From assembly GCF_003018115.1 (NCBI RefSeq), contig NZ_CP027457.1: a DNA stretch of 64,000 nt; one strand, given 5' to 3'. This document shows, one piece after another, positions 59,301-62,300 of this stretch; positions within the stretch are counted from its first letter, which is position 1; each line of letters starts with the position of its first letter. The DNA comes from Escherichia coli (lineage in GTDB: Bacteria > Pseudomonadota > Gammaproteobacteria > Enterobacterales > Enterobacteriaceae). Made by a program: the position numbers.

Positions 59301-62300
59301 GGTAAACATGCAGGATGACTACCATTGCATTTACTGTATCGTTGACCAACACGCGATCACCGTGCGCCAGGATGCACAGAAGCTGCGTAAAGCGACGCTG
59401 GATACGCTGGCCTTGTATCTGGCTTGTGGTATCGATCCTGAGAAAAGCACCATTTTTGTTCAGTCCCACGTACCGGAACATGCGCAGTTAGGCTGGGCAC
59501 TGAACTGCTATACCTACTTCGGCGAGCTGAGCCGCATGACGCAGTTTAAAGATAAATCTGCGCGTTATGCCGAGAACATCAACGCTGGTCTGTTTGACTA
59601 TCCGGTGCTGATGGCAGCGGACATCCTGCTGTATCAAACTAATCTGGTACCGGTGGGTGAAGACCAGAAACAGCACCTGGAACTGAGCCGTGATATCGCC
59701 CAGCGTTTCAACGCGCTGTACGGCGATATCTTTAAGGTGCCGGAGCCGTTTATTCCGAAATCTGGCGCGCGCGTAATGTCGCTGCTGGAGCCGACCAAGA
59801 AGATGTCCAAGTCTGACGATAACCGCAATAACGTTATTGGCCTGCTGGAAGATCCGAAATCTGTAGTGAAGAAAATCAAACGCGCGGTCACCGACTCCGA
59901 CGAGCCGCCGGTAGTTCGCTACGATGTGCAGAACAAAGCGGGCGTTTCCAACCTGCTGGATATCCTTTCTGCGGTAACGGGCCAGAGCATCCCGGAACTG
60001 GAAAAACAGTTCGAAGGCAAGATGTATGGTCATCTGAAAGGCGAAGTGGCTGATGCCGTTTCCGGTATGCTGACTGAATTACAGGAACGTTACCACCGTT
60101 TCCGCAACGATGAAGCCTTCCTGCAACAGGTGATGAAAGACGGCGCAGAAAAAGCCAGCGCGCACGCTTCCCGTACGCTAAAAGCGGTGTACGAAGCGAT
60201 TGGTTTTGTGGCGAAGCCGTAATATCAAAACGCTCGGACGGTCCCCTCGCCCCTTTGGGGAGAGGGTTAGGGTGAGGGGAGCAGGCAAGCGCCAGTGGGA
60301 ATTACCCTTTGCTCGCATTGTCGAATAAATCACTTCGTCATCACTCTGAAACCGGGGAAACCCGGTTTTTTTATCCTCATTTGCAATAATCCGAAAAAAT
60401 GTGAAGCGCCTCGCCGTTTCCACATCTCGCTGTTGCGCCTTATCTTCAAATTCCTGAAGATATAAATATTCACTTTATTGAAAATTTACTATGCGTCGAA
60501 CGTTTATCAAAAAAGAAGGCGTCGTTATCACAACGCTGGCCCGTTATTTGTTAGGTGAAAAGTGCGGTAATCGACTGAAAACCATAGATGAGCTGGCAAC
60601 TGAATGCCGTTCATCCGTTGGCCTGACGCAGGCCGCGTTGAAAACGCTGGAATCAAGCGGAGCGATACGGATTGAACGCCGTGGGCGCAATGGCAGTTAT
60701 CTGGTCGAAATGGATAACAAAGCGCTGCTGAGTCATGTGGATATCAATAACGTGGTGTGCGCGATGCCCTTGCCCTATACCCGTTTGTACGAAGGCCTGG
60801 CGAGCGGATTGAAAGCCCAGTTTGATGGCATTCCTTTTTACTATGCGCATATGCGCGGCGCGGATATTCGCGTGGAGTGTTTACTTAACGGCGTGTATGA
60901 CATGGCGGTGGTTTCCCGACTGGCGGCGGAAAGTTATCTCACGCAAAAAGGGTTATGCCTCGCGCTGGATTTGGGGCCGCACACCTACGTTGGCGAGCAC
61001 CAGTTGATTTGCCGTAAAGGCGAGTCCGCAAACGTGAAGCGCGTGGGGCTGGATAACCGTTCGGCGGATCAGAAAATCATGACCGATGTCTTTTTTGGCG
61101 ATAGTGATGTGGAACGAGTCGATCTCTCCTATCACGAGAGTTTACAACGCATTGTTAAAGGCGATGTTGATGCGGTTATCTGGAACGTGGTGGCGGAAAA
61201 CGAACTGACCATGCTGGGATTAGAAGCGACGCCGCTCACAGACGATCCGCGATTTTTACAGGCCACCGAAGCCGTGGTCCTGACGCGAGTCGATGATTAC
61301 CCAATGCAACAACTGCTGCGTGCAGTTGTTGATAAACATGCCCTGCTTGCCCATCAACAACGCGTGGTGAGTGGGGAACAGGAACCCAGTTATTAAACGA
61401 AAGGCATCTGATATGGAAACCAGACTCAACCTGCTTTGCGATGCAGGCGTTATTGATAAGGACATCTGCAAAGGCATGATGCAGGTCGTCAACGTACTGG
61501 AAACAGAGTGCCATCTGCCGGTGCGCAGTGAGCAAGGAACGATGGCGATGACACATATGGCGAGTGCACTGATGCGCAGTCGCCGTGGTGAAGAAATTGA
61601 GCCACTGGATAACGAGTTGCTGGCAGAGCTGGCGCAATCCACTCACTGGCCAGCCATTTTACAATTGCATCAGGTGTTGTTGAAGGAATTCGCGCTGGAA
61701 GTTAACCCGTGTGAAGAAGGCTATTTACTGGCCAACCTTTATGGATTATGGATGGCTGCTAACGAAGAGGTTTGAAGCTCCCGACAAATCCACGTCGCAC
61801 AACCTAAATATTCAAAAAAATGAATATTTAATTCAAGGAACAGAAACGAGGCAACAAGATGTTTGTAGAAGCATTGAAACGCCAGAACCCGGCGCTGATT
61901 TCCGCCGCACTAAGCCTGTGGCAGCAGGGCAAGATCGCCCCGGACAGCTGGGTGATCGACGTGGATCAGATACTGGAAAACGGTAAGCGGCTGATTGAGA
62001 CGGCGCGGCTTTACGGCATTGAACTGTATCTGATGACCAAACAATTCGGTCGTAACCCATGGCTGGCGGAAAAACTGCTGGCGTTGGGCTACAGCGGCAT
62101 TGTGGCGGTGGATTACAAAGAGGCGCGAGTCATGCGCCGCGCTGGTTTGCCGGTGGCGCATCAGGGGCATCTGGTACAAATCCCTTGTCATCAGGTTGCT
62201 GACGCCGTTGAACAGGGCACCGACGTCATCACCGTGTTTACTCTCGACAAAGCGCGGGAAGTTTCTGCGGCGGCGGTGAAGGCCGGGCGAATCCAGTCTG

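What the first reader, a model, noticed from the sequence alone, without database searches (positions are those of the whole stretch)
60241..60282. G/C-rich multi-arm palindromic element 20 bp downstream of the trpS stop
CCCCTCGCCCC is followed by GGGGAGAGGG and GGGTGAGGGGAG, giving one C-rich arm and two alternative G-rich partners. The canonical T-tailed terminator lies about 100 bp further on (60348-60373), so this element is within the 3' UTR and may act as a stabilising structure, a regulatory switch or a small repeat family member.
Basis: seen in the sequence. Interest (0 to 1): 0.35.

Follow-up and report, generated by a model that had tools for sequence, protein, structure and literature searches.

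The report
Known BoxC triplex-forming repeat after trpS
The G/C-rich element just after the E. coli trpS gene is an ordinary copy of the long-known BoxC (PIT/TMECO) dispersed repeat, present at this spot in only about a third of E. coli genomes, so it is not a trpS-specific regulatory device.

Summary
One C-rich arm (60243-60253) is followed by two G-rich arms (60257-66, 60270-79), 20 nt after the trpS stop and upstream of the real terminator (60348-69).

It is not a new structure. The 36-mer CCCTCGCCCCTTTGGGGAGAGGGTTAGGGTGAGGGG is letter-for-letter the "TMECO type A mm" form of the BoxC/PIT repeat (Holder et al. 2015, PMC4666352). It equals three K-12 copies listed there.

The C-G-G arm layout is what defines this family. 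In vitro the single DNA strand folds into a purine-motif intrastrand triplex. The 55-nt unit occurs at a median of 18 places per E. coli genome.

The trpS site is polymorphic:
- 1,524 of 5,426 genomes carry this allele.
- 1,735 carry a REP pair in the same slot (K-12).
- B2 strains such as EC958 carry neither.
- 342 genomes (O157:H7 type) have one hybrid BoxC joining trpS directly to frlR.

Strains such as O111:H- hold two direct BoxC copies flanking the 7.7-kb yhfS-yhfZ cluster, so the O157:H7 junction marks a BoxC × BoxC crossover.

A dedicated role in trpS expression is unlikely. Published tests found no promoter or terminator activity. Novelty: already known. Interest: low.

The parts
59218..60222 (+). 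trpS (tryptophan--tRNA ligase) coding sequence; context gene whose 3' UTR holds the element
   Evidence: ORF list; RefSeq annotation of identical DNA
60224..60337 (+). Strain-variable cassette between the trpS stop and the terminator. It is replaced by a REP pair in K-12-type strains and is almost absent in B2 strains such as EC958
   Evidence: Alignments A1 and A3; allele counts
60227..60308 (+). Extended BoxC repeat unit: leader AAAACGCTCGGACGGT, triplex motif, spacer, and the first bases (CCCT) of what is a second inverted motif in full-length copies. Boundaries are good to about 5 nt
   Evidence: Alignment A2 with five other E. coli copies; local alignments end at 60223-60239 on the left and 60286-60308 on the right
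60244..60279 (+). Triplex motif proper: CCCTCGCCCC TTT GGGGAGAGGG TTA GGGTGAGGGG, i.e. TMECO type A with one mismatched triad
   Evidence: Matches the published pattern CCCTCNCCC N3-6 GGGNGAGGG N3 GGGNGAGGG. Identical to K-12 TMECO nos. 7, 11 and 15 in Table 1 of PMC4666352
60243..60253 (+). C-rich arm (pyrimidine strand of the Watson-Crick hairpin)
60257..60266 (+). G-rich arm 1 (purine strand of the hairpin; central strand of the triplex)
   Evidence: triplex scheme described in PMC4666352
60270..60279 (+). G-rich arm 2 (mirror repeat of arm 1 at 9/10 positions; third strand of the triplex; in RNA an alternative partner for the C-arm)
60238..60280 (+). 43-bp stretch identical between the trpS-side BoxC and the frlR/yhfS BoxC. 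The crossover that gives the O157:H7 trpS-frlR junction lies in this interval
   Evidence: Alignment A4; two direct copies in O111:H-; O157:H7 junction
60348..60376 (+). Intrinsic terminator of trpS (GAAACCGGGGAAACCCGGTTTT plus T run), conserved in every allele that retains yhfZ
   Evidence: conserved in A3; hairpin -14.5 kcal/mol
60491..61396 (+). yhfZ, first gene of the yhfZ-yhfS cluster that is missing in O157:H7-type genomes

Best explanation
The element is one copy of the BoxC repeat of E. coli, also published as the PIT element and as TMECO. This copy is a 'type A, one mismatch' unit about 82 bp long without the inverted type-B partner. It is a dispersed, non-coding, intergenic repeat and not a device evolved for trpS. 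Its three blocks (C-arm, G-arm, mirror-image G-arm) let the G-rich single DNA strand fold into a hairpin plus a third strand. This is a purine-motif intrastrand triplex, and it could form whenever the duplex is opened. Here the motif lies on the strand with positive GC skew, which I infer to be the lagging-strand template and which is also the non-template strand of trpS. At this locus its demonstrable consequence is structural variation. It sits in a slot between stop codon and terminator that different E. coli lineages fill with BoxC, with a REP pair, or with nothing. It also serves as a 43-bp direct repeat across which the 7.7-kb yhfS-yhfZ cluster has been lost (or gained), leaving a single hybrid BoxC in O157:H7-type genomes. 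Shown here: family identity, copy number, site polymorphism and the hybrid junction. Shown by others: the in vitro triplex, the excess variability around these repeats, and the absence of promoter or terminator activity. Inferred: that structure formation or plain repeat homology drives the rearrangements, and that the effect on trpS mRNA is neutral or minor.
For: The published family pattern matches once in the window at 60244-60278, with 0 matches expected. The 36-mer is identical to TMECO nos. 7, 11 and 15 of K-12. It is also the un-mutated form of the paper's control oligonucleotide. The 55-nt unit is found in 5,425 of 5,426 E. coli genomes at a median of 18 and up to 32 places, almost all chromosomal. 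The five other copies fetched all lie between annotated genes and share flanks beyond the core. BoxC is listed as a known E. coli family of 56 bp and 32 copies in PMC2267715. Site polymorphism: 1,524 genomes have this allele, 1,735 have the K-12 REP allele, a short allele occurs in EC958 and ECC-1470, and 342 have the O157:H7 junction. O111:H- 11128 has two identical motifs in direct orientation 7,700 bp apart flanking yhfS-yhfZ. The O157:H7 junction carries the left flank of one copy and the right flank of the other. K-12 carries the frlR/yhfS copy, which is TMECO no. 15. GC skew is positive across the whole window. The literature reports a stable triplex by CD and NMR (Tm 70-82 °C), no protection in the in vivo DMS footprint, 23 copies in MG1655 that are all intergenic, and greater variability around these repeats than around control sites.
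Against: Triplex formation in vivo has not been demonstrated; the DMS footprint in the cited paper was negative. The crossover could be ordinary homologous recombination between any 43-bp repeat and need not involve a special structure. The direction of the event (deletion versus insertion of the yhf cluster) rests on parsimony and was not placed on a tree. No transcript data were available, so an RNA-level effect on trpS cannot be excluded. As RNA the element would form hairpins more stable than the terminator's.
Confidence: 0.88

Rival explanations
1. RNA-level 3' UTR stabiliser. Transcribed as part of the trpS mRNA, the strong hairpin would block 3'-to-5' exonucleases after the terminator is trimmed, as REP hairpins are known to do, and so raise trpS mRNA stability.
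For: The element lies between the stop codon and the terminator. Predicted RNA hairpins of -16.7 to -23.7 kcal/mol are stronger than the terminator's -14.5. In the 158-nt fold the BoxC hairpin and the terminator hairpin form side by side. K-12 has REP elements in the same slot, and REP is a known mRNA-stabilising repeat (established knowledge).
Against: B2 strains have only about 18 nt between stop and terminator, with no structured element, yet trpS is essential. All the alleles are common. BoxC copies show no strand or position bias relative to genes, and earlier tests found no effect on transcription. No transcript data were examined here.
Confidence: 0.15
2. Regulatory switch. The C-arm toggles between the two G-arms in the RNA and thereby controls read-through, processing or translation of a neighbouring gene.
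For: Two mutually exclusive pairings of similar energy exist.
Against: No Rfam family reaches its threshold; the best hit is 20.9 bits against a gathering score of 40. The same three-block unit is repeated about 18 times per genome in unrelated contexts and in both orientations. Neither pairing overlaps the terminator, a ribosome-binding site or a start codon. The element is absent from this site in about two thirds of genomes.
Confidence: 0.03
3. Recognition site of an unidentified protein, acting as a mobilisation enzyme or a nucleoid or replication factor in the way REP elements are bound by RAYT transposases, gyrase and IHF. The element would then be a non-autonomous mobile or protein-binding unit.
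For: The 36-nt core is identical base for base in genomes labelled Pseudomonas, Stutzerimonas, Devosia, Azospirillum, Enterobacter and others, while the flanks are lineage specific. The element is present or absent at orthologous sites. Copy number varies widely between strains.
Against: Holder et al. found no association with transposons, phages or plasmids. No target-site duplication is visible at the trpS site, because the alleles are replacements and not clean insertions. No candidate protein was sought or found here. The scan pattern fixed the stems, so it cannot measure how much of the core is free to vary.
Confidence: 0.12
4. Chance G/C-rich palindrome with no family relationship.
For: Folding z-scores are modest, at -1.9 to -2.4.
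Against: There were 0 matches in 100 shuffles. There were 88,320 places in 5,425 genomes. The sequence is identical to published copies.
Confidence: 0

Closest known systems
BoxC repeat / PIT element / TMECO (Bergler 1992 and Bachellier 1990s; Hoyne and Maher 2000, 2002; Holder et al. 2015, PMC4666352)
   Same: The 36-nt core, loop sizes and TTA second loop (type A) are identical, as is the single mismatched triad. It is intergenic, multi-copy and shares flanks with other copies. The locus is variable between strains, as that paper reports for the family.
   Different: Nothing in kind. This copy is a solo type-A unit lacking the inverted type-B partner seen in the sstT/alx and yijF/gldA copies. 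It is not present in K-12, so it is not among the 23 K-12 copies tabulated.
REP / BIME (PU) elements
   Same: Both are short G/C-rich structured intergenic repeats that often sit between a stop codon and a terminator. In K-12 a REP pair occupies exactly this slot.
   Different: The sequences are unrelated. REP is a simple imperfect palindrome with a known RAYT transposase partner and known gyrase, IHF and Pol I binding. BoxC has three blocks (C-G-G) and no known protein partner.
H-DNA / mirror-repeat triplex-forming tracts
   Same: Both have a purine-rich mirror repeat able to form reverse-Hoogsteen G*G.C triads, and both are associated with genetic instability.
   Different: H-DNA forms in duplex DNA by strand disproportionation under supercoiling. 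BoxC folds from one strand with all three segments in cis.
Rho-independent terminator
   Same: Both have a G/C-rich hairpin in a 3' UTR.
   Different: No U tract follows this hairpin; the next bases are AGCAGGCAAGC. The true terminator lies 66 nt downstream. Published tests report no terminator activity.

Membership tests
BoxC / PIT / TMECO | Match to the consensus 5'-CCCTCNCCC N3-6 GGGNGAGGG N3 GGGNGAGGG[G/T/C/-]-3' | tested here: met
   Exact match at 60244-60278 (+), 0 expected by chance; pattern taken from PMC4666352
BoxC / PIT / TMECO | Sequence identity with recognised members | tested here: met
   The 36-mer equals K-12 TMECO nos. 7, 11 and 15. The core is invariant across six E. coli copies in alignment A2
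BoxC / PIT / TMECO | Dispersed and multi-copy in the genome | tested here: met
   The 55-nt query gives a median of 18 and a maximum of 32 places per genome in 5,425 of 5,426 E. coli genomes. Literature figures are 23 (TMECO) to 32 (BoxC) copies in K-12
BoxC / PIT / TMECO | Intergenic location | tested here: met
   Lies between trpS and yhfZ. The five other copies fetched all lie between annotated genes
BoxC / PIT / TMECO | Homology extends beyond the triplex core into a roughly 56-bp or longer unit | tested here: met
   Local alignments to other copies span window 60223/60239 to 60286/60308
BoxC / PIT / TMECO | The single strand folds into a purine-motif (class II) intrastrand triplex | not testable with these tools
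   Nearest-neighbour folding cannot model triplexes. The 9/10 mirror symmetry of the two G-arms is present. CD and NMR evidence for the type A mm sequence is in PMC4666352
REP / BIME | REP consensus palindrome (GCCGGATGCGGCG...CGCCTTATCCGGCCTAC type) | tested here: not met
   Absent from window 60223-60347. Present instead in the K-12 allele of the same slot
Intrinsic terminator | G/C-rich stem-loop immediately followed by a T/U run | tested here: not met
   The scan reports only 60348-60369 on the + strand. No T run follows 60280
Curated structured RNA (Rfam 15) | Score at or above a family's gathering threshold | tested here: not met
   The best hit is Antizyme_FSE on the minus strand, 20.9 bits against 40, E = 0.09
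MITE (miniature inverted-repeat transposable element) | Terminal inverted repeats plus a target-site duplication at filled versus empty sites | tested here: inconclusive
   Full-length copies are inverted A+B pairs, but this copy is a half unit. The short allele is not a clean empty site and no duplication is visible

The most novel reading that the evidence does not exclude
The 36-nt core may be more than a passive structure-prone repeat. In a truncated scan of species-representative genomes it is identical base for base in Enterobacteriaceae, Pseudomonas, Stutzerimonas, Devosia, Azospirillum and Asticcacaulis. It is also identical in metagenome bins labelled Chloroflexota, Ca. Kuenenia and a rumen bacterium. 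In every case it is embedded in lineage-specific flanks. Such conservation could mean that the core is the recognition site of a widespread, still unidentified protein, acting either as a mobilising enzyme or as a replication or recombination factor. BoxC copies would then be active crossover points that remodel gene content, as at yhfS-yhfZ in O157:H7.
Probability: 0.12. Interest if true: 0.6.

Novelty: already known. Interest (0 to 1): 0.18.

Why it matters
For annotation, this site should be labelled as a BoxC/TMECO repeat and not flagged as a candidate trpS riboregulator. The locus also gives a clean natural example of what Holder et al. proposed only statistically. Two BoxC copies in direct orientation bracket an 8-gene cluster in some lineages, and a single hybrid copy marks its absence in O157:H7-type genomes. 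In addition, BoxC and REP cassettes alternate in the same stop-codon-to-terminator slot. That makes the site a convenient test bed for asking whether triplex-forming ability, or mere 43-bp homology, drives such rearrangements.

Tried and rejected
- **Rfam scan.** The scan of 59900-60700 at E ≤ 10 gave only three sub-threshold hits, taken as chance.
- **Second copy in the window.** None was found.
- **K-12 coordinates.** My first guess for trpS in K-12 was off by 2 kb and was corrected.
- **Short-allele count.** The direct query failed because BLAST pieces flanking the insert were joined, giving 89% coverage for the other alleles. The short allele is therefore only bounded by the remainder, about 1,800 genomes including any further variants.
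- **Literature on the yhfS-yhfZ loss in O157.** Nothing relevant was found.
- **Literature on BoxC or triplex after 2015.** Nothing relevant was found. The first, broad literature query was swamped by rep-PCR typing papers.
- **Supplements of PMC4666352.** They mention the frlR/yhfS copy but not trpS in the stored (truncated) text. I could not confirm whether the trpS locus is among their 63 loci.
- **Species-genome scan.** It shows breadth but not a complete distribution. Because the pattern fixed the stems, it says nothing about permitted variation.
- **Terminator reading.** Rejected because there is no T tract.
- **Riboswitch-like switch.** Rejected because the unit is repeated in unrelated contexts and is dispensable at this site.

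Full report
**Where we are.** The window is E. coli chromosome. ORFs 57797-58474, 58467-59225 and 59218-60222 are rpe, gph and trpS, and 60491-61396 is yhfZ. Identical DNA in RefSeq genomes carries those annotations. A 301-nt stretch around the finding is 100% identical to strain GF3-3. A 125-nt stretch is 100% identical to strain E2865 and several human isolates.

**Checking the observation.** The sequence is as described.
- The trpS stop is at 60220-60222.
- CCCCTCGCCCC is at 60243-60253.
- GGGGAGAGGG is at 60257-60266.
- GGGTGAGGGG is at 60270-60279.
- TTT and TTA lie between the arms.

The T-tailed terminator is confirmed at 60348-60369.

As RNA, the C-arm with G-arm 1 gives -16.7 kcal/mol with one G.A mismatch. 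With G-arm 2 it gives -21.5 kcal/mol, the same G now pairing as G.U. The best combined fold is -23.7. The terminator hairpin is -14.5.

Against dinucleotide shuffles the folding is only moderately unusual, with z of -1.9 and -2.4. The significance of the element does not come from energy. It comes from the exact sequence, for which none of 100 shuffles gave a match.

**What it is.** A 55-nt query centred on the element hits 5,425 of 5,426 complete E. coli genomes. The median is 18 places per genome and the maximum 32, nearly all chromosomal. It is therefore a dispersed repeat.

Five other copies were fetched: gntP/fimH, yijF/gldA, trmJ/iscR, sstT/alx and zntA/tusA. All are intergenic. Their core is invariant and homology continues into both flanks.

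Full-length copies, such as sstT/alx and yijF/gldA, are inverted pairs. The motif is followed by a roughly 28-nt spacer and then CCCTCACCCCGACCCTCTCCC...GGGAGAGGG on the other strand. The trpS copy keeps the leader, the motif, the spacer and only the first bases of the second arm. It occupies roughly 60227-60308.

**Literature identification.** The literature identifies the family unambiguously. Holder et al. [quoted passage not shown] It was re-described as the PIT element by Maher's group and renamed TMECO. Its pattern is CCCTCNCCC N3-6 GGGNGAGGG N3 GGGNGAGGG. That pattern matches the window once, at 60244-60278.

The window's 36-mer is identical to entries 7, 11 and 15 of their table of 23 K-12 copies, all of type 'A mm'. 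Their negative-control oligonucleotide is this same sequence with four G-to-C changes. BoxC is also listed as a known E. coli family (56 bp, 32 copies) in PMC2267715.

**How the three arms are understood.** The block order C-arm, G-arm, mirror G-arm is what allows one DNA strand to fold into a hairpin with the third segment laid into the major groove. This is a class II purine-motif triplex. In the window, G-arm 2 read backwards matches G-arm 1 at 9 of 10 positions.

Holder et al. report CD and 1H-NMR evidence for a stable triplex, with Tm of 70-82 °C depending on type. Their in vivo DMS footprint showed no protection, so formation in cells is unproven. They state that purine-motif triple helices do not form in RNA. 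At the RNA level only the hairpins are relevant.

They also summarise earlier work as finding no promoter or terminator activity and no effect on RNA polymerase. They found no bias in orientation or distance relative to genes. The window has positive GC skew throughout. I infer that the motif-bearing strand is the lagging-strand template as well as the non-template strand of trpS. That strand is the one exposed when the duplex opens.

**The locus is polymorphic.** Aligning K-12 shows that everything between the stop codon (plus one T) and TCATCACTCTG before the terminator is different. K-12 has two inverted REP elements there. B2 strain EC958 and strain ECC-1470 have only about 18 nt and neither repeat.

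| Allele at the trpS 3' site | Genomes (of 5,426) | Source |
|---|---|---|
| BoxC allele with yhfZ downstream (this window) | 1,524 | |
| K-12 REP allele | 1,735 | |
| O157:H7-type hybrid junction | 342 | |
| Remainder (short allele or other variants) | about 1,800 | not counted separately |

Because trpS is essential and all these alleles are common, the element is dispensable for trpS function. This is the main argument against the 'stabiliser' and 'switch' readings. It does not exclude a modest quantitative effect.

**A crossover at the element.** In O157:H7 the sequence is identical to the window through GGGTGAGGGGA (60280) and then diverges. The next gene is frlR, convergent, and yhfZ through yhfS are absent.

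K-12 has a BoxC between frlR and yhfS, which is TMECO no. 15. O111:H- 11128 has both copies with identical 35-nt motifs. They are in the same orientation and 7,700 bp apart, bracketing yhfS-yhfZ.

The four-way alignment shows that the O157:H7 junction combines two flanks around a shared 43 bp (window 60238-60280). The left flank comes from the trpS copy. The right flank, including its adjacent REP, comes from the frlR/yhfS copy.

This is the signature of recombination between the two direct repeats. The cluster is present in K-12, O111:H- and EC958, so loss in the O157:H7 lineage is the simpler direction. I did not place the alleles on a tree.

Whether triplex formation or plain homology drove the event cannot be decided here. 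Holder et al. discuss recombination between distant copies only as a possibility. I found no paper describing this junction.

**Breadth of the core.** A scan of species-representative genomes for the type-A core (stems and the TTA second loop fixed, first loop free) stopped at its 120-locus limit. Within that limit it returned copies from the following:
- Enterobacterial genera: Enterobacter, Cedecea, Phytobacter, Pluralibacter, Lelliottia, Leclercia, Pseudocitrobacter.
- Other Proteobacteria: Pseudomonas, Stutzerimonas, Devosia, Asticcacaulis, Azospirillum, Methylophaga.
- Metagenome bins labelled Chloroflexota/Anaerolineae, Ca. Kuenenia, Troglogloeales and a rumen bacterium.

Flanks are conserved within a lineage but differ between lineages. 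Holder et al. already reported the motif 3,610 times in 262 proteobacterial genomes. Breadth within Proteobacteria is therefore known. The non-proteobacterial labels rest on bin assignments that I did not verify.

**Verdict.** The element is an already described repeat (BoxC/PIT/TMECO). The regulatory readings are not supported. The only additions here are local ones: the allele census at the trpS 3' slot and the BoxC × BoxC junction that accounts for the missing yhf cluster in O157:H7-type genomes.

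Noticed in passing
L010 801-925 (O157:H7), L014 6540-6700 and 14240-14400 (O111:H-); window 60238-60280: O157:H7-type genomes (342 of 5,426) lack yhfS-yhfZ. They carry a single hybrid BoxC joining trpS to frlR. O111:H- has the two parental copies as direct repeats 7.7 kb apart.
   Followed up: yes
L002 400-634 (K-12, minus strand), same slot as window 60224-60337: K-12-type genomes (1,735) hold a pair of inverted REP elements (a BIME) exactly where the window holds BoxC. EC958 and ECC-1470 hold neither. The two long alleles share TCATCACTCTG before the terminator, which the short allele lacks.
   Followed up: partly
L012 9109-9214: Strain GF3-3, identical to the window over 301 nt, has no frlABCDR operon (yhfS is followed by yhfL and cysG) and no BoxC at that junction. 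The whole cysG-to-trpS interval is therefore a mosaic of present and absent cassettes.
   Followed up: no
L015-L134 (genome-contig scan): The exact type-A core occurs with lineage-specific flanks in many genera of Alpha- and Gammaproteobacteria. It also occurs in bins labelled Chloroflexota, Ca. Kuenenia, Troglogloeales and a rumen bacterium, the last with AT-rich flanks and first loop AAC. Bin labels were not verified and the scan was truncated.
   Followed up: partly
L104 3230-3493: An Anaerolineae-labelled 144-kb contig carries a perfect 90-bp tandem array (2.9 copies). Each unit holds a degenerate inverted motif plus the exact type-A core.
   Followed up: partly
L080, L082, L084-L088, L090, L093, L096 (Enterobacter spp.): In Enterobacter the core is embedded in a longer conserved repeat, ...GCACTAAACCATT[core]AACATACGGCTCTGGTGGTCATTCCGTTCACCTTAGGTTCCTTGCT.... 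This suggests a larger composite element in that genus.
   Followed up: no
L016-L030, L051-L054, L063-L070 (Pseudomonas spp.): Pseudomonas copies share a different conserved leader of about 45 nt, TTTCAGGTCGATGTAGCTC..AACA.CTCGGTCAGTC. Its last bases (CTCGGTCAGTC) resemble the E. coli leader CTCGGACGGTC.
   Followed up: no
window 60178-60423 (minus strand): A mechanical 81-aa GTG ORF runs antisense across the element and the terminator. It spans non-coding repeat DNA that is replaced in other strains, so it is very unlikely to be a gene.
   Followed up: no
and tables (e.g. NZ_CP135245.1, 373-kb record): A few BoxC matches (52 of 88,320 places) lie on records classed as plasmids, although Holder et al. 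reported no association with plasmids.
   Followed up: no
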